From Eledone cirrhosa (taxonomy: Eukaryota), in assembly GCA_964016885.1 (NCBI GenBank), contig OZ024759.1, forward strand, positions 7,564,001 through 7,628,000: a stretch of 64,000 nt of DNA, written 5' to 3'. This document shows positions 19,250-52,535 of this stretch, in pieces. Each line of letters begins with the position of its first letter. The first letter of the stretch is position 1. The notes beneath the pieces are model-generated. The model worked only from the letters and a program-made list of their open reading frames with translations. It did not search any database and had not been told where the DNA came from. The position numbers were made by a program, and so were the translations under genes.

Positions 19250-19677
19250 TTTTTCCGTTTATCGTTTTCGGTGCGCTCGGCCGATTAACCCACTAGATAT
19301 GCAAATTAGGCTGCTCAACTGTTAATATGCATAAGGTAAGTGTACACGTTCAACAATCTGGCAGGAAGGTATACGTTGCTGACGACAGCTAACAAGCTTG
19401 AAACTAGTACAGCGTTCTTTGTCAGTGTTGAACAAACGAGCAACGATGGTTGCTAGACACTACAGCTTAATACGGGATGTTTGTTTACAAACACACCGAG
19501 CATTATAATAAATGTTCGGTGAATCCATTCGTACATATATATATGTGTGCATGTATATATATATATATATACATACTACTGTACGTCTGTATACATATAT
19601 GTATGTACGTATACATACTTATATTTAAGTAACAGCCGTACTAAGAGTGGGAAATGAAATTTCGTTTCATTTTTTCC

Positions 19678-19678
<1 letters not shown>
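19249..19678 (+). mobile_element. ~430-bp non-coding hammerhead-bearing element (Penelope pLTR or retrozyme-like)
   Basis: Island in (TA)n, bounded by the direct repeat TTTTTTCCGT. Contains a hammerhead. A homologue lies at 29031-29325. Confidence 0.6.
19373..19415 (+). ncRNA. Minimal type I hammerhead ribozyme
   Basis: ACGTTG-CTGACGA-C-AGCT-AACA-AGCT-T-GAA-ACTAGT-A-CAGCGT: stem I, core, stem II, palindromic stem III, GUA cleavage triplet. Confidence 0.78.
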
Positions 19679-19735
<57 letters not shown>

Positions 19736-19742
19736 GAATATA

Positions 19743-19830
<88 letters not shown>

Positions 19831-19855
19831 CTGGAATATATGTGTGTGTGTGTGT

Positions 19856-20941
19856 CATCATCATCATCATCATCGTTTAACGTCCATCTTCCACGCTAAC
19901 ATGGGTTTGGACGGGAGTTTTCCCACTTGAGGCAAGAGTGGTTGTCTTGCTCGTATAGGACTGTCTGGCGGGTTTTCTACGGCTGGATGCCCTTCCTAAC
20001 ACCAACCACATTTACAGTGTGGGTCTGGGAGGTTTTTACCGTGTTGCCTACACGGCCACATTACAGCGTGGACTGTGTGGTTTTTTTGTCGTGACACCTA
20101 CACAACCTCATTTGTTTTGGACTGGATGTTGTGGCACCAACATAACTTTACATTTAAGGGGGTGGTGTGGATGGGGTGGAGGTAGTGGGACGGGGGTGTA
20201 TTTTGTTAGAGGTGCCTACTGACTGTAGTAGGTTTCACTTTGTACTTAGGTAAGGCAGGTCTTCTCTATTACTGAGTACTGCCAAAGGTCTCGGTCCAGT
20301 GACATTGTCTTGGAGAGGTGTAAGTGTGTGAGGTCGGAATTTATCAAGTCGTCCCAGGTTTTTCTGGGTCTGCCTACTCCGTGGCTACCGTCTATCTTTA
20401 TTGCCCTGCACTTTTTTATTCAGCTGTCGTCTTTCATGCGCATCACGTGACCATACCAACATAGCCTTCTCTTGAATAAACAACATCTGATCCCTCTTAT
20501 TTCTAATTTCTCACTTAGTTCATTTATGCTTTGCCGTTCACGTATATTACTATTACACATCCAGCAGAGCATGCAAGCTTCGTTCCTCTCCAGTCTGCGT
20601 ATATCCTCTGCACACAATGCCCAGGTCTCACTGCCATGTAACATTGTTGTTCGTATGCAGGCATCATACAGCCTGCCTTTCATTTTTAGGGAGAACCCTT
20701 TAGCGGCCAATAGTGGTATAAGCTATCTGAACTTTTTCCATCCCGTTCTGACTCTAGCTACTGTACTGTCAGAGCACCCTCCCCCACTGCTGATTTTGTC
20801 ACCCAGGTAACGGAAGCTGTCCACTATTTCTATAGAACCATCTGTGCAATGGAATGAGCTAGTATTCAGTGGGCACTTGCTGCTATTTATTGCACCAGAG
20901 CACCGGCCACATGTAAAATCTATATTCTTAGTTAGCTTACC

Positions 20942-20945
<4 letters not shown>
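19856..20945 (-). mobile_element. 5'-truncated RTE family A copy
   Basis: (CAT)n tail, 3'UTR, and ORF remnants 20420-20710 and 20723-20945 with stops. Confidence 0.92.
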
Positions 20946-20993
<48 letters not shown>

Positions 20994-21245
20994 AAGACTG
21001 GAATATATATGTGTGTATATATATAGAGACTGGAATATATGTGTGTGTATATATATATATATAGAGAGAGAGAGACTGGAATATATGTGTGTGTATATAT
21101 ATATATAGAGAGAGAGATTGGAATATATGTGCGTGTGTATATATATAGAGAGACTGGAATATATGTGTGTGTGTATATATATATAGAGAGACTGGAATAT
21201 ATGTGTGTGTGTGTATATATATATATAGAGAGAGAGAGGAATATA

Positions 21246-21292
<47 letters not shown>

Positions 21293-21309
21293 TGGAATAT
21301 GTGTGTGTG
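20946..21309. repeat. CTGGAA compound satellite
   Basis: Same unit as 13440-19248. Confidence 0.93.
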
Positions 21310-22609
21310 TCATCATCATCATCATCATCGTTTAACGTCCATCTTCCACGCTAGCATGGGTTTGGACGAGAGTTTTCCCACTTGAGGCAAGAGTGGTTGT
21401 CCTGCTCGCATAGAACTGTCTGGCGGGTTTTCTACAACTGGATGCCCTTCCTAACACCAACCACATTTACAGTGTGGGGCTGGGAGGTTTTTACCGTGTT
21501 ACCTACACGGCCACATTACAGCGTGGACTGTCTGGCGGGTTTTCTACAACTAGATGCCCTTCCTAACACCAACCACATTTACAGTGTGGGGCTGGGAGGT
21601 TTTTACCGTGTTACCTACACAGCCACATTACAGCGTGGACTGTCTGGCGGGTTTTCTACAGCTGGATGCCCTTCCTAACACCAACCACATTTACAGTGTG
21701 GGGCTGGGAGGTTTTTACCGTGTTGCCTACACGGCCACATTACAGCGTGGACTGTGTGGTTTTTTTGTCGTGACACCTACACGACCTCATTTGTTTAGGA
21801 CTGGATGTTGTTGTACCAACATAACTTTACATTGAAAGGGGGGGGGGGGTAGTGGGACGGGGGGGTATTTTTGTTAGAGGTGTCTACTGACTGTAGTAGG
21901 TTTCACTTTGTACTTAGGTAAGGCGGGTCTTCTGTATTACTGCGTAGCGCCAAAGATCTCGGTCCAGTGACATTCTCTTGGAGAGGTGTAAGTGTGTGAG
22001 GTCGGAATTTATCAAGTCGTCCCAGGTTTTTCTAGGTCTGCCTACTCCGTGGCTACTTTCCATTTTTATTGCCCTTCACTTTTTTATACAGCTGTCATCT
22101 TTCATGCGCATCACGTGACCATACCAACGTAGTCTTCTCTCGAGTAAATAACATTTGATTCCTCTTATTCCTAATTTTTCCCTTAGTTCATTTATGCTTT
22201 GCCGTTCACGTATATTACTATTACACATCCAGCAGAGCATGCAAGCTTCGTTTCTCTCCAGTCTGCATATATCCTCTGCACACAATGCCCAGGTCTCACT
22301 GCCATGTAACATCGCTGTTCGTATGCAGGCATCATACAGCCTGCCTTTCATTTTTAGAGAGAACCCTTTAGCGGCCAATAGTGGTATAAGCTCTCTGAAC
22401 TTTTTCCATCCCGTTCTGACTCTAGCTACAGTACTTTCAGAGCACCCTCCCCCACTGCTGATTTTGTCACCTAGGTAACGGAAGCTGTCCACTATTTCTA
22501 TAGAACCATCTGTGCAATGGAATGAGCTAGTATTCTGTAGGCACTTGCTGCTACTTATTGCACCAGAGCACCAGCCACATGTAAAATCTATATTCTTAGT
22601 TAGCTTACC

Positions 22610-22612
<3 letters not shown>
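21310..22612 (-). mobile_element. 5'-truncated RTE family A copy with a 112-bp 3'UTR triplication
   Basis: ORF 22076-22612 encodes the RT C-terminus. Repeat units start at 21415, 21527 and 21639. Confidence 0.92.
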
Positions 22613-22657
<45 letters not shown>

Positions 22658-23107
22658 AAGACTGGAATATATATGTGTGTGTATATATAGAGACTGGAAT
22701 ATATGTGTGTATATATATATATATAGAGAGAGAGACTGGAATATATGTGCGTGTGTATATATATATATAGAGAGAGAGACAGGAATATATGTGTGTGTAT
22801 ATATATATATAGAGAGAGACAGAGGAATATATGTGTGTGTGTATATATATATATAGAGAGAGAGGAATATATATGTGTGTGTGTATATATATATAGAGAG
22901 AGAGAGAGACTGGAATATATGTGTGTGTGTATATATATATATAGAGAGAGAGAGACAGGAATATATGTGTGTGTATATATATATATAGAGAGAGAGGAAT
23001 ATATGTGTGTATATATATATAGAGAGAGAGAGAGACTGGAATATATGTGTGTGTATATATATATATAGAGAGAGAGAGGAATATATGTGTATATATATAT
23101 ATATATA
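22613..23107. repeat. CTGGAA compound satellite
   Basis: Direct reading. Confidence 0.93.
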
Positions 23108-23604
23108 GGTGGTTGCGCTGGTATGGACATGTGATGCGTATGAATGATGACAGCTGCATAAAAAGGTGCAGAGCACTAGAAGTTGATAGAAACCGCGGAG
23201 TGGGGAGACCCAAGATGACCTGGGATGAGGTGATAAAAGCTGACCTTACACAATTACACCTCTCAAAGGCAATGACACACGACCGTGACTTCTGGCGTCA
23301 CGCAGTAATACAGAGTACCCGACCTCCCATGGGTACAAGCTGAAGCATATAGACAATATGCCCCCACACCCCCCACCGCAAAGTGGACGTGGAGGTGCCA
23401 CGGCAAAAAAGCACCCAGCACTCACTGTAAATGAGGTTGGTATTAGGAAGGGCATCCAGCTGTAGAAATCAAGCCAAATCAGTTCCTGTATGAGCAAGGC
23501 ATGGTCAGCCGACCAGACACTGCCCACAACAGGACAACCCGTCTAACCAATGCTAGCATGGAAGAATGGATATAAAACAGTGATGATGATGATGATGATG
23601 ATGA
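23108..23604 (+). mobile_element. 3' fragment of RTE family B
   Basis: [19 protein letters not shown]...GRPKMTWDEVIKADL, then 3'UTR and (GAT)n tail. Matches 25880-26520 inverted. Confidence 0.9.
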
Positions 23605-24442
23605 TATATATAGAGAGAGAGAGACAGGAATATATGTGTGTGTGTATATATATATATAGAGAGAGAGAGACAGGAATATATATATATATGACTGGAATAT
23701 ATGTGTGTGTATATAGAGAGACTGGAATATATGTGTGTGTATATATATATATATATAGAGAGAGAGACAGGAATATATGTGTGTATATATATATATATAT
23801 AGAGAGAGAGAGACAGGAATATATGTGTGTGTGTATATATATATATATAGAGAGAGAGAGACAGGAATATATATATATATGACTGGAATATATGTGTGTA
23901 TATATAGAGAGACTGGAATATATGTGTGTATATATATATAGAGAGAGAGAGACAGGAATATATGTGTGTGTATATATATATAGAGAGAGACTGGAATATA
24001 TGTGTGTGTGTATATATATATAGAGAGAGAGAGGAATATGTGTGTGTATATATATATAGAGAGAGAGAGGAATATGTGTGTGTGTATATATATATATAGA
24101 GAGAGAGACTGGAATATATGTGTGTATATATATATATATAGAGAGAGAGAGAGAATGGAATACGTGTGTGTGTATATATATATATAGAGAGAGAGAGGAA
24201 TATATGTGTGTGTGTATATATATAGAGACTGGAATATATGTGTGTGTGTATATATATAGAGACTGGAATATATGTGTGTGTGTATATATATAGAGAGAGA
24301 AAGAGACAGGAATATATGTGTGTATATATATATACAGAGACTGGAATATATGTGTGTGTATATATATATATATATAGAGAGAGAGAGACTGGAATAAATG
24401 TGTGTATATATATATATATAGAGAGAGAGAGAGACAGGAATA

Positions 24443-24489
<47 letters not shown>

Positions 24490-24556
24490 TGAGAGACTGG
24501 AATATGTGTGTGTATATATATATATATATAGAGTGAGAGACTGGAATATATGTGTG

Positions 24557-24587
<31 letters not shown>

Positions 24588-24640
24588 GAATATGTGTGTG
24601 TATATATATATATAGAGAGAGAGACTGGAATATATGTGTG

Positions 24641-24671
<31 letters not shown>

Positions 24672-24806
24672 GAATATGTGTGTGTATATATATATAGAGA
24701 GAGAGAGACTGGAATATATGTGTGTATATATATATATATATATAGAGTGAGAGACTGGAATATATGTGTATATATATATAGAGTGAGAGACTGGAATATG
24801 TGTGTG

Positions 24807-24837
<31 letters not shown>

Positions 24838-25177
24838 GAATATGTGTGTGTGTGTATATATATAGAGAGAGACTGGAATATATGTGTTTGTGTATATATA
24901 TATAGAGAGAGAGAGGAATATGTGTGTGTGTGTATATATTTAGAGAGAGAAAGAGACAGGAATATGTGTGTGTGTGTATATATATATACAGAGACTGGAA
25001 TATAAGTGTGTGTGTATATATATATATAGAGAGAGAGACAGGAATATGTGTGTGTATATATATATAGAGAGAGAGAGACTGGAATATGTGTGTGTATGTA
25101 TATATATAGAGAGAGAGACTGGAATATGTGTGTGTATACATATATATATAGAGAGAGAGGAATATGTGTGTGTATAC
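23605..25177. repeat. CTGGAA/CAGGAA compound satellite
   Basis: Direct reading. Confidence 0.94.
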
Positions 25178-25418
25178 ACACAGTCCACGCTGTAATGTGG
25201 TCGTCTAGGTAACACGGTAAAAAGCTCCCAGTCCACACTGTAAATGTGGTTGGTGTTAGGAAGGACCCCCAGCCGTAGAAAACCTGCCGGGGACAGTCCT
25301 ATACGAGTGAGACACGGTCACCCGACCAACCTTGCCACAAGTGGGACAACTCCCGTCTAACCCATGCTAGCGTGGGAGATGGACGTTAAATGATGATTAT
25401 GATGATGATGATGATGAT
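25178..25418 (+). mobile_element. RTE family A 3'UTR-only fragment with (GAT)n tail
   Basis: Matches 1465-1685. Confidence 0.85.
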
Positions 25419-25734
25419 AGAGAGAGAGACACTGAAATATGTCTGTTTGTAAATATATAGAGAGAGGGGGACTGGAATATATGTGTGTATATATATATAT
25501 ATATATAGAGACTGGAATATATGTGTGTATATATATATATATATGTTGGAGGTGAGTTTTATTGTAGTACAATAAAGCAATGCAGATATCGGATAAGTAG
25601 CACTCTACAGTTTGTAGGACTGGAGTATAAATAATATATATAAGATCAATACATCAATCTAAAACTACTCTTCATATGTTGATTTAAAACTGCACTATTC
25701 ACAAGTGTTTTTTAACCTTCATATCATGTCTCCC

Positions 25735-25805
25735 TATTTTATCTGACGAAAACGCAAATGTCATCGCATGATGATATTTGTTTTTGAAATGCGCATAATA
25801 AAATA
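25735..25805 (+). ncRNA. Type I hammerhead ribozyme with long stem II
   Basis: TATTTTAT-CTGACGA-[16-bp stem II, 15 of 16 paired, loop GCAT]-GAA-ATGCGCAT-A-ATAAAATA. Perfect 8-bp stem I, AUA triplet. Confidence 0.82.
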
Positions 25806-25879
25806 CATGGAACTCTTTTAACCATCTTTTGATCTTATATATTATATATATATATATATATAGAATGGAATATATGTTA

Positions 25880-28800
25880 CATCATCATCATCATCATCAT
25901 CATGACCGTTTTACGTCCGTTCTTCCATGCTAGCATGGGTTAGACAGGGTGTCCTGTTGTGGGCAATGTCAGGTCAGCTGACCCTGTCTTGCTCATACAG
26001 GAACTGATTCTGGCTTGATTTCTACAGCTGGATGCCCTTCCTAACACCAAGCTCATTTACTGGGTGCTTTTCTTCCGTGGCGCCTACATGTCCACTTTAC
26101 AGTGTGGGCTGGGTGCTTTTTTGCTATGGCACCTCCACAAACACTACAGTGAATGCTGGCTGCTTTTTTACTGTGGCGCCTACACAACCACTTTACAGTG
26201 TGGGCTGGGTGTTTTTTTGCCGTGGCACCTCCACGACCACTTTGCAGTGGCAGGGTGTGGGGGCATATTGTCTATATACTTCAGATTCGGCTTGTACCCG
26301 TGGGGAGTCGGGTCTTCTGTATTGCTGCATGACGCCAGAGGTCACGGTCGTGTGTCATCGCCTTTGAGAGGTGTAATTGGGTAAGGTCGGCTTTTATCAC
26401 CTCGTCCCAGGTCTTCTTGGGTCTCCCCACTCCGCGGCTTCCATTGACTTCTACTGCTCTGCACCTTTTTATGCAGCTGTCATCCTTCATACGTATCGCA
26501 TCTCCATACCAGCGCAACCGCCTCTCCTGCACACAGCATTTGATTCCTCTTATGCTTAGTCTCTCTCTCAATTCGTTTAAGCTTTGTCGTTCGCGTATAT
26601 TACTATTACACATCCATCGGAGCATGCAGGCTTTGTTTCTTTCTAATCTACATAAGTCTTCCACAGACAGAGCCCAGGTGTCACTACCATGTAACATTGC
26701 TGTTCGTATACACGCATCATACAGTCTGCCTTTCTTTTTGAGAAAAAAGCCTTTTGCAGCTAGCAGTGGTAGCAGCTCCCTGAACTTCTTCCATCCCGTT
26801 CTTGCCCTAGTTATTGTACTTTCTGAACACCCACCTCCGCTGCTAATTCGGTCACCTAGGTAGCAGAAGCTGTCTACTGTTTCTACAGAGCCCTCCCAGA
26901 GATTGGTGGTACTTGTTTCCTGTGGCTGTTTGCTGCTACATGTGAAGCCTACATTCTTAATTAAGCTTCCTGAGATCCCGCTACATCTCTTGTGTACCCA
27001 TTGTTTGCATTTGGGGCAGAGAATAGAGTTCCTATTTACACCTTTCCTACATACTGAGCAAGGCCATTTCCCTGAGGGGATCTGGGTTCTGTTTTCTCGT
27101 CTACTTACAAGGACCTTAGTCTTTGTCAGGTTGACTTTGAGACCCTTTCTTTCTAGTCCCTGCTTCCAAGTTTGGAATTTCTTCTCTAGTTCTACCATAG
27201 ATTCAGCTATAAGTGGAAGGTCATCTGGAGTTCCCATGGGCATCCGGCCTTAAACTCCTCCGTTATTGCCTGCAGGACTATGATGAACAGGAGAGGGCTA
27301 AGAACAGAGCCCTGGTGGACACCGACCTTTACGCTAAATTCCTCGCTATACTCATTGCTAATCCTAACTTTGCTGACTGCTCCCCTATACATGGCGTATA
27401 TAGCTTTCACAAGCCATTCATCTACTCCTAGTTTTCTAAGAGCCCACCAGATTATAGCACAGGGAACTCTGTCAAAGGCTTTCTCGAGATCGACGAATGC
27501 CAGGTAGAGTGGCTTACTTTTAGCTAGGTACTTTTCCTGTAACTGCCTCACAAGGAAGAGGGCATCAGTGGTGCTTTTTCCTGGCACAAACCCAAATTGC
27601 ATTTCATTTAGTTTCACCTGGTCCCTAATCAATTGTGCTATAACTCTTTCTGTTACTTTCATGACCAAGAGTCTACTTGGGGTAGGGTCTCTTCTTCCCA
27701 TGCATTCTCCTCATTTAGTAATCAATCATAATGGCTCTTCCACGCATCTTTCTTCTCAGCACTTGTGAGGGCAAGCTCACCTTTATCATTCCGGATACAC
27801 TTCTCTCCAATGACATCACAATTCTCTCTGACACACTGCCTCGCAATCTTGAAAACCTCCTGTTTCTGGTCCTCACGTTGCAAAACATGCTTGATTTTTC
27901 TATCCTCTGCTTCCCTCCTAGCTAAGTATACTTGTCGCCTAGCTTCCCTCCTGGTCTCTATGTAATGTACCCTGCTTCCCCCGTTCTTCCATTCTCTCCA
28001 TGCCCGTCTCTTGGCCTAAACTGCCTCATCTACCTTATTGTTCCACAACAAAGTCACTCTCCTCCTGCCTGTGGTCTTACGCCAGCCATAGATCTCATAC
28101 ATCGCCTCTAGTAAGTTATTTTTTAGGAACTCCCAGTGCTCTTCTACATTGAATGTCTCTATCTGTTCTTCTTTACTGTCATAGGCATTGAGTAAAATAT
28201 CTTTAAATCTGTTACTGGATGAGGGGTCTTTCAGTTTCTAGATCTTTCTTCTCCAGGTTGGCTTCTGTTTCCAGGTTCATCTAGTTCTGATTGTGAGGTC
28301 GCTGACAACTAAGCTATGTTGGGAGGTACATTCCTAACTAGGGAAGGCTTTTGTGTTTACGACCGTCCATCTGTCACGTCCTCTGATGAGGATAAAATCT
28401 ATCTGAATAGAATGCTCCCCTGATCTATAGGTGATCAGGTGGTTGTCGGGTTTTTTGAAGTTTGTGTTGCATATCGACATGTCATTGGCGTCGCAGAATT
28501 CTAGGAGCCTGAAGCCTTCTTCATTTCTTGTGCCAACCCCATGGCCTCCATGGACTATATAGAAGCCGTCACAGTGTTTACCTACATGTCCGTTAAAATC
28601 TCCTGCGATGATTAAGAAGTCATTGTCGTTTGTTAGAGCAGTAGTGTACATTAGGGACTTGTAAAACCTATCCTTAAGTTCGTCTGGCAACCCAGATTGG
28701 GGTGCGTAAGCTAATATTATTGTGCCATGCTTTGCAGCATAGTTACGTCCCTTTACGGTCTGAGTTCAAATCCTGCCGAGGTTGACTTTGCCTTTCATCC

Positions 28801-29030
28801 TTACGGGGTCGATAAAATAAAGTACCAGTAATGCACTGGGTAATTGCTGGCCTTGTGCCTAAAAGTAGAAACAATTATTGTGGTAATTGTTTTATTCAGG
28901 ACTAGTCTGAGTTTAATGATTCTTGCATTCACCCTGTTCACTGAGATTACTTTATCTACCCACTTGTCAGCTAGTAGGATATCTACACCACCCATCCCAT
29001 CCTCATTTCCCACCCAGGAAAATTTGTTTT
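25880..29030 (-). mobile_element. Decayed RTE family B LINE (APE + RT + PHD-like insert), internally deleted
   Basis: APE motifs (GDFNGHVG, QIDFIL), RT motifs (AFVDLEKAFDRV, GVHQGSVLSPLLF), ORF 26281-27243. Frameshifts and a small deletion at LYADD. Confidence 0.92.
28725..28873 (+). mobile_element. 5'-truncated Nin/Deu-domain-type SINE inserted into the RTE APE region
   Basis: B-box GAGTTCAAATCC and GCCTTTCATCC..GGGGTCGATAAAAT..GTACCAG domain. Target-site duplication ATTATTGTG at 28716-28724 and 28874-28882. Confidence 0.85.
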
Positions 29031-29325
29031 CCAAACATTTATTATAATGTTCGGTTTGTTTGTAAACAAACAGCCCGAATTACGCCGTACAGTGTTCGGC
29101 AACCATCGTTGCCCTTTTGTTCAACACTGACACAGGAACAATGAACTAGTTTCAAGCTTATTAGCTATTGTCAGCATTGTATACCTTACAAACAAACTGA
29201 ACATTATAATAAATGTTCGGTAAACCCATACATACATGTATATATATATGTGTGCATGTATGCACATACTACTGTACATACTACTGTACATCTGTATACA
29301 TATATGTATGTATATATACATATAC
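29031..29325. mobile_element. Rearranged (inverted + direct) copy of the 19.3-kb hammerhead element
   Basis: 29031-29187 matches ~19367-19520 inverted. 29186-29325 matches ~19485-19618 in direct orientation. Confidence 0.72.
29138..29180 (-). ncRNA. Hammerhead ribozyme copy, probably inactive (core CUGACAA)
   Basis: Minus strand reads ACAATG-CTGACAA-T-AGCT-AATA-AGCT-T-GAA-ACTAGT-T-CATTGT. Confidence 0.68.
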
Positions 29326-29672
29326 GAGAATGCTGAGGATGGCTCTGAACATTAATCAGTATACACTGAGGATGAAAAACTCAGAGCTGTATGGGAGCAT
29401 CCCAAGAGTCAGCTCAAAAGTGACACAGAGGAGACTGAGGTTGGCTGGACATGCTCACCGACATCCAGAGTTGACATTGCGCTCAGTGCTTCTTTGGGAG
29501 CCCCTACATGGACACACTAGAAGAGGAAGACCAAGGTTAACGTATGTTGATGCCCTAAGGACAGACACTGGTCTATTGGAGATGCAGGACATGGCAGTGA
29601 TACTGAGGGACAGAGACCGCTGGAGAGAACTCGTCCATGGATCTCGGGAATTTTACCCGCCTTAGAATAGAA
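29323..29672 (+). mobile_element. 3' fragment of a third RTE-like LINE family (C)
   Basis: TRMLRMALN...RRLRLAGHAHRHPE...LWEP...RGRPRLTYVD...RDRWR, a typical RTE C-terminus. Confidence 0.82.
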
Positions 29673-29801
29673 TATATATATATATATATATATATGGCTT
29701 CTACATGACTAGAATTGTTTAAACATGATGTTCACACTACTAATGTATTGAGTACCTTACTCACTATGGTTACCTGCAATTGAACCTGACATACACACTC
29801 T

Positions 29802-29835
<34 letters not shown>

Positions 29836-30024
29836 ATTGTTTCTACTTTTGGTACAAGGCCAGCAATTACCCAGTACATTACCGGTACTTTATTTTATCG
29901 ACTTCGTAAGGATGAAAGGCAAAGTTAACCTCGGCGGGATTTGAACTCAGAATGGCAAGGGCCGTAACTCTATGCGTCAAAGCATGGCGTCCGACCCTCT
30001 ACCGATACTGCCAATCCACCGTCC
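29836..30024 (-). mobile_element. Nin/Deu-type SINE
   Basis: Reverse complement of 49865-50052. Confidence 0.85.
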
Positions 30025-30043
30025 TACATATATATATTAATAG

Positions 30044-38357: not shown

Positions 38358-38475
38358 ATATTTCTTTATTAGCCACATAGATAGACATTCTGTAATCAAT
38401 CCTGATGTCCTGCTGTGATAATGGAGGTAAAACTATAAAAGGAAGGAAGACAAACAAGAAGCGACACATATATAG

Positions 38476-40682: not shown

Positions 40683-40778
40683 TATATATATATATGTGTA
40701 TATGTGTGTTAATTTATGAGAAATAAACAGCAATTATCTCACATAAATTAACATAAACAAGATATCATGAATATATAT

Positions 40779-43700: not shown

Positions 43701-44692
43701 TCCATCATAGCCATCACAATGTTGTCCAACGTGACGATTTTGGTTGCCAGCAATAATTATATAGTCACTGTCGGTTATTTGGGAGGTAGTGAGCATCAAT
43801 GTCTCATAGAATCTGTCTTTTATAATGCCAGGCAGTCCGGATTGGGGTGCATACGCAGATATTACTGTCACAGTAGTTCTATTGAGGACAAGTCTTATTT
43901 TAATTATTCTGTCGTTCACTCTATTTACGTCTATTATCTTATCTACCCATTTTTCTGCTAACATGATTCCTACCCCACCCAGCCCATTTTCATTTCCCAC
44001 CCAGAAAAGCTTATAGCATCGTTTTTTACCCACAATGAGTCTAGCAGACCCACCCCTCCACCTGGTCTCTTGGATACAGCAAACATCAACCTCCTTGCGT
44101 TCAAGCATTTCTGCAACCTCGTTAGAGCGACCTTTTAAGGTGCCTACATTCATGGTACCAACTCTGAAGTTTTGGATTGCGTTTGGTGGGTTGGAACGGT
44201 GGGGCACGGGGAGGGGAGGGGTCTGGGGTTAGGGTTATGTTGGCCATCCGCGGCCGAAACAAAGAGGAGGAGTCCTTGCCCTTTCGTCCGGCAGCATGAG
44301 GTGAATTTGTCTTTATCTTTGGCATTGTCACTGAGTGTCCAGATTTTTTCAGACTCCCCAGAATTTCCTAGTCCATCCATCATATCGAAAGGCAACCGGA
44401 AGAAGTGATAGCATAGGCCGCTGACTTATGATTGGTCGAACTAATAATAATGGTGGTGAGTGGGGGCGGGTGGGAGGGGTATGGGGTAGTTAGCGAGAAG
44501 GTTTAAATAAAATCCTCGAAATTTGGGTATAATTGGACAAGCATATAACAGTAATAAGCGAATAATATTTAGTACAACCTGACAGAATTATAGAATAGCA
44601 TTGAGATGGACCGGGAAATGGAGAGAACGAAAGAAAATAGCATTCTACATTACATTTTCACAGGAGAACGAACAGTGTGACCATTAATAAGA
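40779..44692 (-). mobile_element. Near-full-length RTE family A LINE (5'UTR, APE, RT with PHD insert, 3'UTR, tail), frameshifted
   Basis: GTMNVGTL, CCIQETRW, SAYAPQ, QIDYIL, NYRGIKL, DLEKAFDRV, GVHQGSVLSP, LYADD, FRYLG across ORFs 43593-44207, 43374-43583, 41978-43228 and 41145-42038. The 5' boundary is uncertain (44400-44692). Confidence 0.93.
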
Positions 44693-44717
44693 ATATATAT
44701 ATATATATATATCATAT

Positions 44718-45048
44718 ATCATCATTTTTATGTCCGCTTTTCCCTGCTTGCAAGGGTGGGACGGGAACTGATTCTGGCTTGATTTCTACAGCTGGATGCC
44801 CTTCCTAACACCAACCTCATTTACAGTGAGTGCTGGGTGCTTTTTTGCCATGGCACCTCCACGACCACTTTGAGTGGAATGATAGGGACCCCAGTCCCTA
44901 TCATTTCATTTCTACAGCTGAGTAAACTGGAGCAATGTGAAATAAAGTGTCTTGTTCAAGGAAACAACACATCACCTGGTCTGAGAATTGAACTCACAAC
45001 CTTTCTATTGCAAGCCCAATGCTCTAACCACTAAGCCATGCACCTTCA
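44718..45048 (-). mobile_element. tRNA-derived CORE-type SINE with RTE-B 3' tail
   Basis: Reverse-complement homologue of 53227-53559. Confidence 0.87.
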
Positions 45049-45392
45049 TATACATATACATATGGCATATTTTGGCAGTGGGTTTTGGTTATCGTGTTGA
45101 GCTCTACTGATGAACGACTCCAACCGTGACTAATCCCACTGAAAAGTTTTGTGAAATAGTCTTTTTAAGACTATATAGAGCATTTGTAGTTTTTCCCAAT
45201 TGAAGGATGAGTATTTAAACTTTATTTTATTCTGAGTTAAGACTCTATTGGTTTTTTCCCTGGATTTCACAAAATCTGTGGATAAAATCTCTGTCTTGAT
45301 TTTTATTTTAATTAAGTTTCAATTATTTTCCCACATCTTACGTTAAATATTTTCCATTTTGACGTTATAGTCACTTATATATTATGAAATAC

Positions 45393-45548
45393 TTGTTTCT
45401 ACTTTAGGCACAAGGCCAGCAATTACCCAGTGCATTACTGGTACTTTATTTTATCGACCCCGTAAGGATGAAAGGCAAAGTTAACTTCGGCGGGATTTGA
45501 ACTCAGATCGTAAAGGGACGTAACTATGCTGCAAAGCATGGCGTTGGC
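45393..45548 (-). mobile_element. Nin/Deu-type SINE, 5'-truncated
   Basis: Matches 28725-28873 inverted. Confidence 0.85.
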
Positions 45549-45599
45549 TTCTTGCTCACATTAATTTCTCTATTTTCATTTATATATATATATATAAAT

Positions 45600-45636
<37 letters not shown>

Positions 45637-45715
45637 AATACACACATATATATATATACACACACACACATATATATATATATAAATACACACACACACA
45701 CATATATATATAAAT

Positions 45716-45797
<82 letters not shown>

Positions 45798-46353
45798 TGA
45801 TGAGGGACGTATTTTATTACATGTTACCATGTGCTACCTGCAGTATTTTTCTCTATATTTTAATACATATATTTACCACTGCGATTCTCTGTTTTTTTTC
45901 TCTCTCTCTTACTGTTCCCCCATTCTCTCTGTTTCTCCCCCTCTGTCTTGTCCGTTAACTCTTCCTCACACTTTCACTCACTCACTGTTTTTCTCCCTCT
46001 TCTCTTCATTTCATCCTGCACTCACGGACGCTATTTTTTCTCTCTCTGCTCAATGGCCTTCGTTCGTGCTGGCACTATTCTCTAAGCGCTCATATATTCA
46101 CCTAGCTTACGCTAACAGAATAATTTTTGAAGCTTGTTTCTCTCCCACGGTATGCTATATTTTCTGTTGTTCTCCTGTCTCACTCGCTTTACGCGTTTTA
46201 ATTGTCCTAATAACTTATTTTGGTTATTATTGCACCGAAGTGAGATATATGATTTTTAATGCAATGAAATATCTATGATCTTCGGCAAATCACTGATGAG
46301 GGACGTATTTTATTACATGTTACCATGTGCTACCTGCAGTATTTTTCTCTATA

Positions 46354-46423
<70 letters not shown>

Positions 46424-46426
46424 AAT

Positions 46427-46459
<33 letters not shown>

Positions 46460-46462
46460 AAT

Positions 46463-46521
<59 letters not shown>

Positions 46522-46542
46522 CACACACATATATATATATAT

Positions 46543-46576
<34 letters not shown>

Positions 46577-46790
46577 GCAAAAGTTTTATTTAAGATTGTT
46601 GGGTTACAACATGTAAATATTTTATAACTGATATAAAAGCACTCAACAGTTTCTGGAGTAGGTTTACGATATGAAACAAATGGAAACTATATTTATAAAA
46701 CCATATTTATTTCGTTATATATATTTCTGGGATATCATATGGTATGCCTTCCTCAGACAAAATACAATACATAAGCTGTTTTATAAATAA

Positions 46791-47779
46791 CTAGCAGTAA
46801 AGCCCGGCGTTGCTCGGGGTCGCTCAGTAGCTGTGTTAAAGTTACAATGTTAAGTTTCTTTCTTGGCTTAAAAACTGTAGTGTCTACTGTGCAGACTTGC
46901 ATGTGGTGTTTTTGATTAATATTCCCTCAACCAACAATATGCCTTATGAAGTTAAGAAAACATAACGATAACCCGAATGTTATAACAAAAGAGGATGCTG
47001 GGGATAGAAACTGCACTGGTTATTTATTAACAAAGATCGAAAATGTAAACACTGCAACGCAGAGAAAAACATTAGCGTAACCAAATTATCAGTTATGTCT
47101 GTCTGCACGCCTATATCACCTCTCTGCACGACTGTCTGTCTGCACGCCTATATCACCTCTCTGCACGACTGTCTGTCTGCGCGCCTATATCACCTCTCTG
47201 CACGACTGTCTGTCTGCGCGCCTATATCACCTCTCTGCACGACTGTCTGTCTGCACGCCTATATCACCTCTCTGCACGACTGTCTGTCTGCACGACTGTC
47301 TGTCTGCACGACTGTCTGTCTGCACGCCTAACGACGAAATATTTGCTTGTTTTACGTAGTCTTTAAATAGACTTGTTTTCAAGTAAAAATATTGTTTTAA
47401 AATGCTTTTAAATGGAAATGAAGCAAAACGGAAGCTTAGTGTTCGAACTGATGAATTTTGCAGGTCAATATTTTGCTGGCTCGACAACTGTTAATGTCAT
47501 TTTAAACGCTGAGAAAGCCAGCGTAATTTTTTACGTAAGACGCTCAATGTAAACAGAACAAAGGGAAATAACTGATCACTTACGCTCAAAAATCGATACA
47601 TTATATTCGATTTCGTCACATAGGGTGGGTCAATTTGAAATTTTTTTTCTTCCGATGTCTTCGCTAGGGCTCAATGTACAAGTATAGCAATTTCGGTGCA
47701 ATTCCGTGAGAGATTCCGAGAGGAGATGTGTGCCAAAAATCGATAGACAGACAGACAACCACAGTTTTATATATATAGA
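46791..47779 (-). mobile_element. Non-autonomous Helitron (left-arm copy)
   Basis: Mirror image of 47860-48831. Confidence 0.87.
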
Positions 47780-47859
47780 TTAGTGACATACCTTGTAATA
47801 ATGCAACTTCCATTTAAAAAGTTAAATGGAAGTTGCATTATTACAAGGTATGTCACTAA

Positions 47860-48831
47860 TCTATATATATAAAACTGTGGTTGTCTGTCTGTCTATCGAT
47901 TTTTGGCACACATCTCCTCTCAGAATCTCTCACGGAATTGCACCGAAATTGCTATACTTGTACATTGAGCCCTAGCGAAGACATCGGAAAAAAAAAATTT
48001 CAAATTGACCCACCCTATGTGACGAAATCGAATATAATGTATCGATTTTTGAGCGTAAGTGATCAGTTATTTCCCTTTGTTCTGTTTACATTGAGCGTCT
48101 TACGTAAAAAATTACGCTGGCTTTCTCAGCGTTTAAAATGACATTAACAGTTGTCGAGCCAGCAAAATATTGACCTGCAAAATTCATCAGTTCGAACACT
48201 AAGCTTCCGTTTTGCTTCATTTCCATTTAAAAGCATTTTAAAACAATATTTTTACTTGAAAACAAGTCTATTTAAAGACTACGTAAAACAAGCAAATATT
48301 TCGTCGTTAGGCGTGCAGACAGACAGTCGTGCAGACAGACAGTCGTGCAGAGAGGTGATATACGCGTGCAGACAGACAGTCGTGCAGAGAGGTGATATAG
48401 GCGTGCAGACAGACAGTCGTGCAGAGAGGTGATATAGGCGCGCAGACAGACAGTCGTGCAGAGAGGTGATATAGGCGTGCAGACAGATAGTCGTGCAGAG
48501 AGGTGATATAGGCGTGCAGACAGACATAACTGATAATTTGGTTACGCTAATGTTTTTCTCTGCGTTGCAGTGTTTACATTTTCGATCTTTGTTAATAAAT
48601 AACCAGTGCAGTTTCTATCCCCAGCATCCTCTTTTGTTATAACATTCGGGTTATCGTTATGTTTTCTTAACTTCATAAGGCATATTGTTGGTTGAGGGAA
48701 TATTAATCAAAAACACCACATGCAAGTCTGCACAGTAGACACTACAGTTTTTAAGCCAAGAAAGAAACTTAACATTGTAACTTTAACACAGCTACTGAGC
48801 GACCCCGAGCAACGCCGGGCTTTACTGCTAG
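47860..48831 (+). mobile_element. Non-autonomous Helitron with internal 37-bp minisatellite
   Basis: 5' TCTATATATATAAAA, 3' hairpin CCCGAGCAACGCCGGG followed by CTAG, inserted between A and T. The empty site gtcactaa|ttatttata is seen at ~49474-49490. Confidence 0.9.
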
Positions 48832-49054
48832 TTATTTATAAAACAGCTTATGTATTGTATTTTGTCTGAGGAAGGCATACCATATGATATCCCAGAAATA
48901 TATATAACGAAATAAATATGGTTTTATAAATATAGTTTCCATTTGTTTCATATCGTAAACCTACTCCAGAAACTATTGAGTGCTTTTATATCAGTTATAA
49001 AATATTTACATGTTGTAACCCAACAATCTTAAATAAAACTTTTGCATATATATA

Positions 49055-49087
<33 letters not shown>

Positions 49088-49098
49088 GTGTGTGTATT

Positions 49099-49137
<39 letters not shown>

Positions 49138-49140
49138 ATT

Positions 49141-49171
<31 letters not shown>

Positions 49172-49202
49172 ATTTATATATATATATGTGTGTGTGTGTG
49201 TG

Positions 49203-49248
<46 letters not shown>

Positions 49249-49728
49249 TATAGAGAAAAATACTGCAGGTAGCACATGGTAACATGTAATAAAATACGTC
49301 CCTCATCAGTGATTTGCCGAAGATCATAGATATTTCATTGCATTAAAAATCATATATCTCACTTCGGTGCAATAATAACCAAAATAAGTTATTAGGACAA
49401 TTAAAACGCGTAAAGCGTAATAATGCAACTTCCATTTAAAAAGTTAAATGGAAGTTGCATTATTACAAGGTATGTCACTAATTATTTATAAAACAGCTTA
49501 TGTATTGTATTTTGTCTGAGGAAGGCATACCATATTTTTAATATGATATCCCAGAAATATATATAACGAAATAAATATGGTTTTATAAATATAGTTTCCA
49601 TTTGTTTAATATCGTATTTATATATATATATATATAAATATGAATTAGTTTTGCGAGGTTTTTGATATGAAATCGTGTGTCGAAACAAATATTGTTATAC
49701 TTGGGGAGGGTCATATTTGTGTAATAAT

Positions 49729-49839
49729 ATTGTTTCTACGTTAGGAACAAGGCCAGCAATTACCCAGTGTATTACTGGTACTTTATTTTATCGACCCCAT
49801 AAGGATGAAAGACAAAGTCAACCTTGGCGGGATTTGAAC
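49729..49839 (-). mobile_element. Nin/Deu-type SINE, truncated
   Basis: 3' part of the same SINE family. Confidence 0.82.
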
Positions 49840-49864
49840 AATATTATTTGTGTAATAATAATAA

Positions 49865-50052
49865 GGGCGGTGGATTGGCAGTATCAGTAGAGGGTCGGAC
49901 GCCATGCTTTCCAGCATAGTTACGTCCTTTTACGGTCTGAGTTCAAATCTCGCCGAGGTTGACTTTGCCTTTCATCTTTACGGGGGTCGATAAAATAAAG
50001 TACCAGTAATGCACTGGATAATTGCTGGCCTTGTGCCTAAAGTAGAAACAAT
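49865..50052 (+). mobile_element. Nin/Deu-type SINE, full length
   Basis: GGGCGGTGGATTGGCAG head, B-box GAGTTCAAATC, GCCTTTCATC..GTCGATAAAAT domain, flanking duplication ATTTGTGTAATAA. Confidence 0.87.
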
Positions 50053-50228
50053 GATTTGTGTAATAAATTTGCCAGAATTTATAGCAGAACACACTCACTG
50101 TTGGTTGGTTTTCACTTCTGTATCTTTTATATCGGTTAATTTAATTTATTCGGTCCTCAATGTTTACCATTGACTGACCAACAGTCAAAAATACAGATAC
50201 AATATAGACACAAACACATATATATAGT

Positions 50229-50276
50229 CTAACAAAGTTCTTTCGTTGCACACTTGCAACATCGTCAATGGTGCTA
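50229..50276 (-). ncRNA. Degenerate hammerhead-like motif downstream of the GIY-YIG relic
   Basis: Minus strand reads TTGACGA-T-GTTGCA-AGTG-TGCAAC-GAAA. Stems I and III are poor. Confidence 0.45.
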
Positions 50277-50554
50277 TTATGTTTCCTCCCGTTGCATTGT
50301 ATGCCTACGCCATCTTTATTTAGTCTGTTTATTTATTTATTTATTTATTTATTTTTGTCTTCTTCTCTGCGCATGCGTTTGCGTGTGTGTATAATGTTTG
50401 GGTGACTGTATATTGGTTATTGTATTCTATCTTAGTTTACTAGTGTGTGTTTATATGTGTTTGTTGTTATTGTGCTTGTGTATGTATTTATTTATTTATT
50501 TTTTTATTTATTTATTTATACTTCTCTTAGGTCAGTGTTGTTTGTTTGGGTGTT

Positions 50555-50815
50555 GTTGTTATTCCATTCATTTTTTCTGTTTAGCCTTGGCCTTCTAAGT
50601 TCTATTTCGCTGGCCTCTCTGATTTGCCTACCTGCTGCGTCATTTCTATGTTTAGATATTATTTTAATTTCTATGTTGTCTATGTTACCGTCCTGTTGTT
50701 GTCTGGCAAGTTTGTATAGTACTGAATCGTTTTTTCGTCCTTTTAGTTCCCCCAGTGTTGGTCTATCCTTTCACCTATGCTCCGAGCTGTCTCGCCTATG
50801 TTGTCATGTTTCTGC
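50555..50815 (-). pseudogene. Penelope-like element GIY-YIG endonuclease remnant
   Basis: Manual translation of the minus strand gives NIGETARSIGERIDQH, a frameshift, then DSVLYK...GRQIREASEIELRRPRLNRKNEW. Confidence 0.75.
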
Positions 50816-51158
50816 AGAAACATGACAACAACATAGAAATTAAATAGAAATTAAAAAACGACTTAAACATGTGATGTGACTGTTGTATCGTGGTTTGGTG
50901 AAGATGAGGTTGGAGAGATGCAGGGAGGATTGGATGTATATGGGGGGGGGGAGAGGTTGGAGGAAGCGCTTGAGAGTAGAATGGAGTGGTAGAGAGTCGT
51001 GGAATATTAAAATGGAAGAAGCAAAGAAAATTTCAAAGATATGAAAGATTTCCTGGTGGAGGTTCAGGTGTACTCCAGGTTGATATCCAGTTTCGGGGTG
51101 AAAATCCAATTAGAAAATCCAACAAATTTTGAGAGGTGCACGTAAGCGTTGATATATA

Positions 51159-52039
51159 CAGGGTGAGGACGATATTTGTTCGCAATTTTCAACTGCTAAT
51201 TTTATGCAATTTATTTTTACTTCCGTTGTCACTCTTGTCTCCATAAAAACAGTGACTATATTTCCATTATTTATTTTCAGAATAATTGATTATGAATAAT
51301 TTTGAACCTCCAAATTTGTGGAAGAGACACGGAGTTCTTCTTGGAATCCGCGCCGGGAGGACAAATAAGACCAGAAGATCAACTCCCAGAACAACAGGTG
51401 TCTCGCTGTCTCATCCAAAGACGTGCCCAGAGTCATGCAGACAAAGTTTCCAGCGACAACATTGGTCTTAGGTGTCGTCAGCAGTCGAGGTGACGTCATG
51501 CCACCTCACTTCTTCCCTGAGAGCCTCAAGCTGAACACTGATGGATACATCCACGTTCTGAGCGAAGTAGTAAAGCCCTGGATCGACCAGGTAGCTGCAG
51601 GTAGGCCGTATGTGTGGCAGCAAGGCTCAGCGCCCTGCCATACCAGCCGAAAGACCCAAGCCTGGCTGTCAGAGAACTTCGTCGACCACACATCACCTGA
51701 CATCTGGCCTCCCAGCTCACCTGACTGCAACCCTTTCGACTTCTTTGTGTGTGGCGCAGTGGAACGAGACACCAACAGATCTAGCTGCAATACGAAAGAC
51801 GATCTGAAGGCCAAGATCACAAGTGCATTTAGGGGCCTAAGTCGGGGGACAGTGACGAAGGCCTGTAGCCGGTTCCGAGGCCGTCATCAAAGCCAATGTC
51901 GGATTTATCGAGTGAGATAGAAAGAACAAGTCATGAAGACATACTGACCCAAGTTTGATAAATAAATCTTAAAAAATAAAACTACTGTGTTCATTTTTCC
52001 TAGACAGTAATCTTGAGAACAGATATCGTCCGCACCCTC
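51159..52039 (+). mobile_element. Tc1/mariner DD37D (maT-type) transposon relic, internally deleted
   Basis: ~27-bp imperfect TIRs CAGGGTGAGGACGATATTTGTTCGCAA preceded by TA. ORF 51423-51920 has QQ(D>G)SAPCH and WPPSSPDCNPFD with 37-residue spacing. Confidence 0.88.
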
Positions 52040-52203
52040 TTCGATATAAATACCCCCTCCGCCTCCGTGGTATTTTCTTCGTGGTTATAAGAGGCTTAGC
52101 TCTGTTTCTCGACCGTTATATCGCGTGACTATCTCCCCCTCCGCCTTTTGGGATTCTTTCTCACGTCGTGTAGACGCGTTCTTGAGACTAGTAAAATGAG
52201 GTA

Positions 52204-52293
52204 TCCTCTTGATAAGTCGGCAGACCTCGCAAGGACTCTATATCTTTATGATGTATTGTTTTTGTTTATGCCACGAAACTACGTAGTCGAGGA
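52204..52293 (+). ncRNA. Type I hammerhead ribozyme, U3-A8 core variant
   Basis: TCCTC-TTGATAA-GT(C)GGCA...TGCCAC-GAA-ACTACGTAGT-C-GAGGA, GUC cleavage triplet. Confidence 0.72.
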
Positions 52294-52362
52294 ATCTAGG
52301 AGCAGTTTAGGTATGATACATTTTATTACTAATTATATCTAAATGTTTCTTCTCTCTTCATA

Positions 52363-52408
<46 letters not shown>

Positions 52409-52499
52409 GTATGTAAAAGGTAAACAGAAATCACAACACAATCGGTACAGTATATGGAAGGGATATATTAGGTTAACGCTTGAAATAGCTGGAAGAGGG

Positions 52500-52535
52500 T
52501 CTTAACGTTTCGGACGCTAGTCCTTCATCAGAAGA
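52500..52535 (-). ncRNA. Minimal type I hammerhead ribozyme
   Basis: Minus strand reads TCTT-CTGATGA-A-GGAC-TAGC-GTCC-GAA-ACGT-T-AAGA. Confidence 0.75.

What the first reader, a model, noticed from the sequence alone, without database searches (positions are those of the whole stretch)
19373..52535. Five to six minimal type I hammerhead ribozymes from several unrelated families in 33 kb
Seen: motifs at 19373(+), 25735(+), 29138(-), 50229(-, degenerate), 52204(+) and 52500(-). The well-preserved ones have the YUGANRA...GAAA core, a paired stem II, a closing stem I and a palindromic loopless stem III (ACTAGT, ATGCGCAT, ACTACGTAGT, ACGT). They sit in short non-coding islands, most inside (TA)n. 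Known: this is the architecture of dimer-forming minimal hammerheads of Penelope-like elements and metazoan non-LTR retrozymes. Inference: this genome hosts several distinct self-cleaving, non-coding retroelement families, possibly mobilised by Penelope enzymes (GIY-YIG relic at 50.6 kb), that the ORF track cannot show.
Basis: partly seen in the sequence, partly recalled or inferred. Interest (0 to 1): 0.8.

Follow-up and report, generated by a model that had tools for sequence, protein, structure and literature searches.

The report
Penelope ribozyme repeats, one scrambled hammerhead

Summary
Four pass a strict descriptor that gives 0.05 hits per shuffled window, and all six belong to high-copy repeat families. 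The motifs at 50229, 52500 and 25735 are 3' ends of coding Penelope-like elements (PLEs), not non-coding families. 19373/29138 (one family), 52204 and a missed one at 45101 are 420-626-bp ORF-less tandem units (non-LTR retrozymes) with PLE insertion marks: fixed 3' ends at (TA)n, inverted arms, 5' truncation. These are new members of known kinds. The notable one (46204-46304, mirror copy near 49300) is a 495-bp-unit family whose hammerhead blocks run site-GAAA-CUGAUGA, as in type-SGC ribozymes from metatranscriptomes, but with stem II detached from A9 by two extra helices. Its six helices covary (16 of 33 pairs, 0 of 500 shuffles), about 17,000 copies exceed the control, and published Octopus Naiad ends show the same design by eye. 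Cleavage, circles and expression are untested. This scan noted both the two-armed retrozymes and the rearranged hammerhead before on other DNA; I checked them independently here.

The parts
19248..19680 (+). Family A retrozyme, ~1.03 units of a 420-430-bp ORF-less tandem unit, 3' end at (TA)n
19373..19415 (+). A hammerhead: type I, stem I 6 bp with distal extension, stem II 4 bp, palindromic ACTAGT; predicted cut after 19409; 10.1/11.1 not a G-C pair
29030..29330 (-). Older family A copy with inverted arm; hammerhead 29138-29180 with C3.A8 mismatch (probably inactive); boundaries approximate
25543..25835 (+). Family B: 5'-truncated 3' end of a Hydra-like PLE preceded by an inverted ~105-nt tail; hammerhead 25735-25805, predicted cut after 25797
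45063..45590 (+).
45101..45181 (+). F hammerhead: type I with a stable stem III hairpin (predicted monomer-competent); predicted cut after 45175
45798..46362 (+). Family G, ~1.15 units of a 495-bp tandem unit with no recognisable gene, ending at (TA)n
46204..46304 (+). G rearranged hammerhead: helix a 46204-07/46301-04; hairpin c 46209-14/46223-28; stem II 46230-34/46260-64; helix d 46235-40/46280-85; stem III 46243-48/46269-74; stem I 46250-55/46287-92; GAAA 46266-69; CUGAUGA 46293-99; predicted cut after A46249
49245..49417 (-). Second G copy (ribozyme ~49298-49398), made by the local inverted duplication 46185-49417
46710..46762 (-).
48860..48912 (+). Family I hammerhead, mirror copy of 46710-46762
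49510..49571 (+). Family I hammerhead, third copy
50054..50816 (-). Family E: 5'-truncated coding PLE; broken GIY-YIG region 50618-50799, 3' UTR, hammerhead 50233-50273 (C3U in this copy, weak stem I)
49615..49732 (-). 3' terminus of the family E PLE, split off by an inserted repeat
52040..52365 (+). Family C retrozyme (591-bp unit), 5'-truncated, ending at (TA)n; hammerhead 52204-52293 with U3-A8 core, GUC site, predicted cut after 52288
52408..52665 (-). Family D: 3' UTR/pLTR of a coding PLE; classic minimal hammerhead 52500-52535

Best explanation
Steps. (1, shown) Each family has one or two fixed 3' ends abutting (TA)n, about 60-270 nt downstream of the predicted cut, variable 5' truncation and often an inverted second arm that uses the other fixed end. 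(2, inferred from PMC11167929) A PLE endonuclease nicks AT-rich DNA and the RT starts at two internal sites of the RNA, one per DNA end. (3, shown) Copies read through the predicted cut site and reach ~87 units, so the template was not a cut linear monomer. (4, inferred) It was a ligated circle made by ribozyme cleavage of tandem transcripts, or an uncut multimer; I favour circles at about 60:40. (5, predicted) Palindromic stem III motifs (A, B, C, D, I) cut as dimers; F, with its own stem III, and G cut as monomers. (6, predicted) In G the order is site, GAAA, CUGAUGA; helix d clamps stems I and II as in type-SGC; the chain is opened between A9 and position 10.1, where helix a and hairpin c form a multi-way junction that brings the stem II 5' strand in from upstream.
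For: Motifs above chance. Copy numbers: A-type 16-mer 29,646 vs 2 control; C 23-mer 7,458 vs 0; G-type patterns 17,827 vs 2,322 and 2,106 vs 127. Coding parents: D 8 of 30, E 8 of 30 loci including the window's own; B in L231 and L023; none upstream for A (0 of 30) or C (0 of 30); F 1 of 20, behind a TA run. Units of 420, 591, 626 and 495 nt with longest stop-free frames of 61, 86, 78 and 137 aa. Fixed ends: A 43 of 44 arms at two sites, C 46 of 47, F 19 of 21 at one, G 16 of 16 at two; 12 of 13 two-armed A loci use different ends on the two arms (overlapping loci repeat in C and G). Units within one insertion are closer than between insertions (C: 0.5% opposite arms vs 2.1%; A: 3.1% vs 3.6%). 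Covariation: A 4 of 13 pairs; G 16 of 33 pairs, 93.5% of cells paired, 0 of 500 shuffles, slid controls 27-43%; a second G lineage respells all six helices and closes stem II with G-C next to GAAA. Naiad_Obim and Naiad_Ovul 3' ends in the supplement of PMC8557442 show the same six helices by eye.
Against: No cleavage or RNA data. In the one PLE studied in vitro, ribozyme mutants still inserted and uncut RNA was the main substrate (PMC11167929). 8 of 9 Xenopus retrozyme dimers did not cleave (bioRxiv 10.64898/2026.07.22.740005), and minimal motifs cleave poorly (PMC4209133). Family A lacks G10.1-C11.1 in 9 of 10 aligned variants, family E has a 2-bp stem I, and the main G lineage has U at 11.1, often unpaired. 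Related sequences can beat the shuffle control without structure (tool caveat), helix a has only 1 two-sided change in A1, and the greedy six-helix parser passes 17% of shuffled controls. No Naiad or other coding parent for G was found in this genome. The tail is 56-170 nt here against 30-40 nt in the papers.
Confidence: 0.68

Rival explanations
1. The ribozymes are dispensable for insertion: long uncut tandem transcripts are the RT template, long arrays grow afterwards by DNA-level duplication, and no circular RNA takes part.
For: PMC11167929: hammerhead mutants did not affect insertion in vitro and no reads ended at the cut site. Within-insertion similarity fits a multimer as well as a circle. 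The window itself shows a DNA-level inverted duplication.
Against: Core and stems stay conserved with compensatory changes across diverged subfamilies, which requires selection on the RNA fold. Circles are shown for coral, mussel and axolotl retrozymes (PMC7229834, passages).
Confidence: 0.3
2. The G structure is real but is not an active ribozyme; it is an RT-binding or priming element that keeps hammerhead-like nucleotides, or it cuts only with a protein bound.
For: Stem II is not adjacent to CUGAnGA (direct pairing of at most 2 bp in 46 of 46 motifs), which breaks an assumption of PMC10085705. One fixed 3' end lies just past the motif. The Anolis PLE hammerhead needs protein to cut (PMC11167929).
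Against: C3, U4, G5, A6, G8, A9, G12, A13, A14, A15.1 and U16.1 are invariant in 26 of 26 aligned sequences while N7 and the stems vary; the site is AUA, AUC, GUC or GUU, never NUG, in 46 of 46, although the parser required this.
Confidence: 0.2
3. A, C, F and G are not independent non-autonomous elements but pseudo-LTRs of coding PLEs whose ORFs were not sampled, as turned out for family B.
For: B scored 0 of 30 with the first protein queries, yet has a coding parent. Loci reach only 1.5 kb upstream and were ranked by similarity to short queries.
Against: A, C, F and G form perfect head-to-tail tandems whose unit holds no gene, which was not seen for B, D or E.
Confidence: 0.15
4. The motifs are chance matches in AT-rich repeat DNA.
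For: No Rfam hammerhead hit; folding z-scores are weak, -0.5 to -2.8.
Against: 5 hits against 0.05 expected, thousands of copies, compensatory changes, and a fixed place at PLE 3' ends.
Confidence: 0.01

Closest known systems
Minimal type I hammerheads of metazoan Penelope-like elements (Cervera and de la Pena 2014, PMC4209133)
   Same: Palindromic or absent stem III, extra nucleotide after A9, U3-A8 core variant, location at PLE 3' repeats (B, D, E, I; core variant in C).
   Different: New sequences. B and C have much longer stem II regions; A and B lack G10.1-C11.1.
Metazoan non-LTR retrozymes (Cervera and de la Pena 2020, PMC7229834; Li, Clavereau and Pollet 2026, bioRxiv 10.64898/2026.07.22.740005)
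   Same: ORF-less, low-GC tandem units with one type I hammerhead per unit, coexisting with PLEs (A, C, F).
   Different: Units of 420-626 nt are at or above the 150-450 nt first described, though within the 51-972 nt of the 2026 preprint. The two fixed ends and inverted arms are not described in the parts of those papers that I read. Circles were not shown here.
Type-SGC hammerhead / HRIMA-1 (Eckert et al. 2023, PMC10085705)
   Same: Order site, GAAA, CUGAnGA; short linker from stem I to stem II (3-5 nt in most copies); an extra helix joining the other sides of stems I and II; full core.
   Different: The stem II 5' strand does not follow CUGAnGA but lies upstream, joined through helix a and hairpin c. 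It sits in an animal genomic retroelement; the paper found type-SGC only in environmental data, none in genomes of known organisms.
Naiad PLEs (Craig et al. 2021, PMC8557442)
   Same: (TA)n targets, partial tandems and inverted arms. Octopus Naiad 3' ends carry the G design by eye; Naiad_Ovul is flagged 'HHR_half_core' in the supplement.
   Different: G has no ORF and no Naiad copy was linked to it in this genome. The paper calls cephalopod Naiads inactive remnants, whereas G copies are up to 100% identical.
Hydra and Neptune/Nematis PLE clades (PMC8557442)
   Same: [quoted passage not shown]
   Different: Clade labels rest on motifs read by eye; no tree was built.

Membership tests
PLE minimal type I hammerhead | CUGAnGA (or U3-A8) and GAAA...UH core with stems I and II | tested here: met
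   A, B, C, D, F, I met; window copies 29138 (C3.A8) and 50233 (U3.G8, 2-bp stem I) are defective
PLE minimal type I hammerhead | Palindromic stem III allowing a dimer | tested here: met
   A, B, C, D, I palindromic; B and I exchange TGCGCA and TATATA. Not met for E (AGAACU) or F (hairpin)
PLE minimal type I hammerhead | G10.1-C11.1 pair | tested here: inconclusive
   Present in C, D, E; absent in most A (1 of 10) and in B
PLE minimal type I hammerhead | Lies in the terminal repeat of a coding PLE | tested here: met
   D 8 of 30, E 8 of 30, B 2 loci; not found for A, C, F; not tested for I
PLE minimal type I hammerhead | Self-cleavage as dimer | not testable with these tools
   Needs in vitro transcription
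Non-LTR retrozyme | Head-to-tail tandem unit with one type I hammerhead per unit | tested here: met
   A, C, F. G is tandem but its ribozyme is not type I
Non-LTR retrozyme | No protein-coding capacity, GC below 45-50% | tested here: met
   GC 0.38, 0.41, 0.33, 0.39; longest frames 61, 86, 78, 137 aa
Non-LTR retrozyme | Expressed as unit-length circular RNA | not testable with these tools
   No usable RNA data; needs RNase R and divergent RT-PCR
Non-LTR retrozyme | Target-site duplication when present | not tested
   Ends lie in (TA)n, which hides duplications
PLE-type insertion | Fixed 3' end, 5' truncation, partial tandem, inverted arm, (TA)n target | tested here: met
   for A, C, G (F: fixed end, no inverted arm in 20 loci); for B
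PLE-type insertion | 30-40-nt tail between two RT start sites | tested here: inconclusive
   Two ends exist but are ~56 (A), ~57 (G), ~105 (B) and ~166 nt (C) apart
Type-SGC hammerhead (HRIMA-1) | Order site, GAAA, CUGAnGA with stems I and III paired | tested here: met
Type-SGC hammerhead (HRIMA-1) | Block C intact: stem II 5' strand within 1-2 nt of CUGAnGA | tested here: not met
   Direct pairing of at most 2 bp in 46 of 46 motifs; the strand before GAAA pairs upstream instead
Type-SGC hammerhead (HRIMA-1) | Short stem I-stem II linker and an interaction helix | tested here: met
   Linker 4 nt in the window; helix d 97% paired with 4 of 6 pairs changed on both sides
Type-SGC hammerhead (HRIMA-1) | Site-specific self-cleavage | not testable with these tools
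   Needs in vitro assay
Naiad-derived element | Shares its 3' end with a Naiad (N-terminal GIY-YIG, RT) in the same genome | tested here: inconclusive
   Design matches published Octopus Naiad ends by eye; one exact 18-nt motif gave no match in G000; no protein search was run

The most novel reading that the evidence does not exclude
Family G carries an active hammerhead of an undescribed topology: the pseudoknotted (SGC-class) wiring opened at the A9/10.1 step, with two extra helices plugged into the core. It is the missing ribozyme of Naiad retrotransposons, it survives in some 17,000 non-autonomous copies that are still spreading in this genome through circular RNAs, and these are reverse-transcribed from two fixed start sites by a Penelope-type enzyme.
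Probability: 0.5. Interest if true: 0.85.

Novelty: new variant of a known kind. Interest (0 to 1): 0.62.

Why it matters
They show at one locus the whole PLE-ribozyme community (coding parents and ORF-less riders), and the two fixed ends give genomic support for the proposed but untested mobilisation of retrozymes by PLE enzymes. The rearranged G motif matters more. Non-circular hammerhead permutations were reported only from environmental sequence, standard descriptors and Rfam miss this form, and it would explain why Naiads seemed to have a hammerhead core without stems. It is a 100-nt RNA with a predicted cut site and natural compensatory variants, so it can be tested in a week.

Tried and rejected
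Rfam: only miRNA-like noise on TA repeats, nothing at gathering score. DNA search for family C found nothing, not even itself (common words skipped); replaced by a pattern. A six-permutation scan requiring an intact stem II found no rearranged motif in the window, which is how the split stem II showed up. A CGS match at 47448/48190 needs 107- and 35-nt loops inside another repeat; treated as chance, not followed up. No RNA holder listed. Contigs of runs of unrecorded kind were laid on G and on C/D; a monomer-length contig that returns to its start in run X4 fits tandem DNA as well as a circle, so nothing was concluded. Pfam gave no hit for the E protein, the window relic or the Hydra-like ORF; BLASTP of Hydra-like versus E-type endonuclease was not significant. 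An exact Naiad-end motif had no match. No sequence similarity among A, C, F units and B, D, E 3' ends beyond simple repeats, so no parent could be assigned. Single-sequence folding does not recover most active folds. The opposite-arm distance for G is confounded by short arms and was not used. The Hydra-like ORF near a G copy in L232 is separated from it by a TA end and an inverted copy, so it is not a parent.
Full report
Setting. The window is G000:C20:7,564,001-7,628,000 of a 3.0-Gb genome, largely satellites and broken LINEs. I take the host to be a cephalopod from recalled repeat sequences and from earlier notes of this scan; no tool named it.

Observation. All six motifs are present; exact spans are. 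A strict type I descriptor found 5 motifs (19379+, 25743+, 29174-, 45107+, 52531-) against a mean of 0.05 in 60 shuffles. The 52204 motif has a bulged stem II and is caught by a relaxed rule; 50233 is weak. Rfam names no hammerhead among 150 of 170 printed matches and none in 7 loci. Using family queries, the window holds 12 motifs: A x2, B, C, D, E, F, I x3, G x2. Two of them (one G, one I) come from a 3.2-kb local inverted duplication (96.6% over 3,278 nt). In 239 fetched loci (781 kb, partly overlapping and biased to TA-rich nests) the same families occur as bystanders 69 times, about one per 11 kb. The window (one per 5 kb) is therefore dense but not exceptional.

E (50233) is continuous with the GIY-YIG relic at 50618-50799; 8 of 30 E loci, the window's included, have PLE coding sequence upstream on the same strand. 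The family core is CUGAnGA in 29 of 33 matches. A related family 59% identical in protein has compensated stem II pairs and a 4-bp stem I; its endonuclease hits Pfam GIY-YIG below the cut-off. D (52500) has RT or GIY-YIG sequence upstream in 8 of 30 loci (RVT_1 E 5e-7 for L073). B (25735) scored 0 of 30 with those queries, but L231 shows a near full-length PLE ORF, a 1-kb UTR and then the B hammerhead, and L023 repeats this. The first ~105 nt of the window's B island are an inverted copy of the sequence that follows the 3' end. The B protein resembles Hydra-1_Obim by eye (supplement of PMC8557442); Pfam is blank and the Atlas gives a GIY-YIG lead at 0.95. D and E have the CX4CxxC linker that the paper gives for Neptune and Nematis; I did not resolve the clade.

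Three families are ORF-less tandem units. A (19373, 29138) has a 420-430-nt unit, C (52204) 591 nt, F (45101) 626 nt; GC 0.33-0.41; longest stop-free frames 61, 86 and 78 aa. An A-type 16-mer occurs 29,646 times (control 2) and a C 23-mer 7,458 times (control 0). No PLE coding sequence lay upstream in 30 A and 30 C loci; the one F case is behind a TA run. C carries U3-A8 in 71 of 71 matches, a swap reported for Schistosoma PLEs (PMC4209133). Ten chosen A variants show 4 of 13 pairs changed on both sides, but the 10.1-11.1 pair is G-C in only 1 of 10. These fit metazoan non-LTR retrozymes (PMC7229834; bioRxiv 10.64898/2026.07.22.740005).

Insertion marks. Arms end at fixed sites next to (TA)n: A at about +215 and +270 after the predicted cut (43 of 44 arms), C at +80 and about +246 (46 of 47), F at +266 (19 of 21), G at +65 and +122 (16 of 16); positions include a few TA bases and overlapping loci repeat in C and G. 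In 12 of 13 two-armed A loci the two arms use different ends. This matches the PLE layout in PMC8557442 and the two internal RT start sites found for an Anolis PLE (PMC11167929), although the spacing here is longer than their 30-40 nt. Because copies read through the cut site, the template was a circle or an uncut multimer. Units of one insertion are more alike than units of different insertions, which fits either.

The missed family G. I had seen a CUGAUGA at 46293 preceded rather than followed by GAAA. G is a 495-nt unit with many identical copies and an array of about 43 kb, about 87 units if continuous, whose ends and 20 inner loci I saw. Patterns for GAAA-N20-25-CUGAnGA-N-GG give 17,827 matches (control 2,322) and 2,106 (control 127). 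Alignment A1 holds 26 sequences: 25 of the 38 distinct hits plus L137; I left out 9 truncated or rearranged copies, 2 unrelated matches, 1 copy of the second lineage and 1 near duplicate. The six-helix model gives 93.5% paired cells, 16 of 33 pairs changed on both sides (shuffles 10.0, 0 of 500) and 27-43% pairing when slid; relatedness inflates the shuffle test and helix a has one two-sided change. All core positions are invariant. A second lineage respells every helix and closes stem II with G-C next to GAAA (no formal count). Of 88 distinct motifs, 46 had stems I and III of 4 bp or more; in all 46 the strand after CUGAnGA cannot pair with the strand before GAAA (at most 2 bp), and 37 of 46 had all six helices against 17% in a shuffled control.

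How G compares. It shares with HRIMA-1 the order, the short stem I-II linker and the helix clamping stems I and II (PMC10085705). It fails that paper's rule that stem II follows CUGAnGA within 1-2 nt. My reading: the single extra nucleotide that PLE hammerheads carry after A9 is here replaced by helix a and hairpin c, and the chain ends lie in helix a. It works like a type-SGC hammerhead but is not a member by that definition. Craig et al. report that Naiads lack canonical hammerheads yet flag some as 'HHR_half_core', Naiad_Ovul among them. The 3' ends of Naiad_Obim and Naiad_Ovul in their supplement show all six helices by eye (not run through a tool). An exact motif from them did not match G000, so which enzyme moves G now is open.

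Against. Nothing here shows cleavage, circles or expression. Published assays are sobering: low activity for minimal motifs (PMC4209133), 1 of 9 dimers active (2026 preprint), and cleavage not needed for insertion in vitro (PMC11167929).

Literature seen. PMC4209133 parts 1-2 of 4; PMC7229834 12 passages; bioRxiv 10.64898/2026.07.22.740005 parts 1-3 of 5, supplements not seen; PMC8557442 passages, supplement rows and part 24 of 59; PMC11167929 parts 1-2 of 4; PMC10085705 outline, parts 3-4 of 8, first part of the Discussion and passages, supplements not seen and possibly relevant; passages of PMC13725137, PMC10162972 and PMC11300833, none describing this form. Searches listed no paper on a rearranged hammerhead in an animal genome or in Naiads; the library lacks most subscription papers.

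Verdict. The finding as written is real but ordinary (new members of known kinds; about 0.35 on its own). The interval also holds a well-supported structural variant of the hammerhead that I did not find in print, which sets the class and lifts the score to 0.62. This scan has noted both themes before on other DNA.

Noticed in passing
window 46185-49417: Near-perfect 3.2-kb palindrome centred near 47820 that duplicates G and I ribozymes and an unrelated element with a 37-bp internal tandem (Helentron-like by recall), followed at 49417-49616 by short re-copied pieces; fold-back during insertion or replication, or an assembly artefact.
   Followed up: partly
G000:C4:299,750,676-299,793,758 (L175, L182-L200, L233, L234): About 43 kb of G units at 97-100% identity between two TA tracts, roughly 87 units if continuous.
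   Followed up: partly
L231:1976-5500: Near full-length Hydra-like PLE with one break in the ORF, 1-kb UTR, B hammerhead and an inverted 5' copy.
   Followed up: yes
L014:500-1050, L099, L156: Sister family of E (E2), with a better-paired hammerhead and compensated stem II.
   Followed up: partly
L011, L086, L095, L105, L131, L145, L150, L221, L253: At least six further type I hammerhead families turned up in flanks, some with U3-A8 cores.
   Followed up: no
window 51369-51920 (+): 183-aa frame that looks like a Tc1/mariner transposase remnant by eye; no Pfam hit.
   Followed up: no
window 47443-47610 (+) and mirror: CUGAUGA and GAAA-N35-UA with 5-bp stem I but a 107-nt stem II region; probably chance.
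   Followed up: no
window 59123-63327: 40-bp satellite that reverses direction at about 59530, giving a long hairpin (source of the miRNA-like Rfam hits).
   Followed up: no
A-type hits: Spacings of about 466, 480, 503 and 538 nt besides 420-430 nt suggest several A subfamilies with different unit lengths.
   Followed up: no
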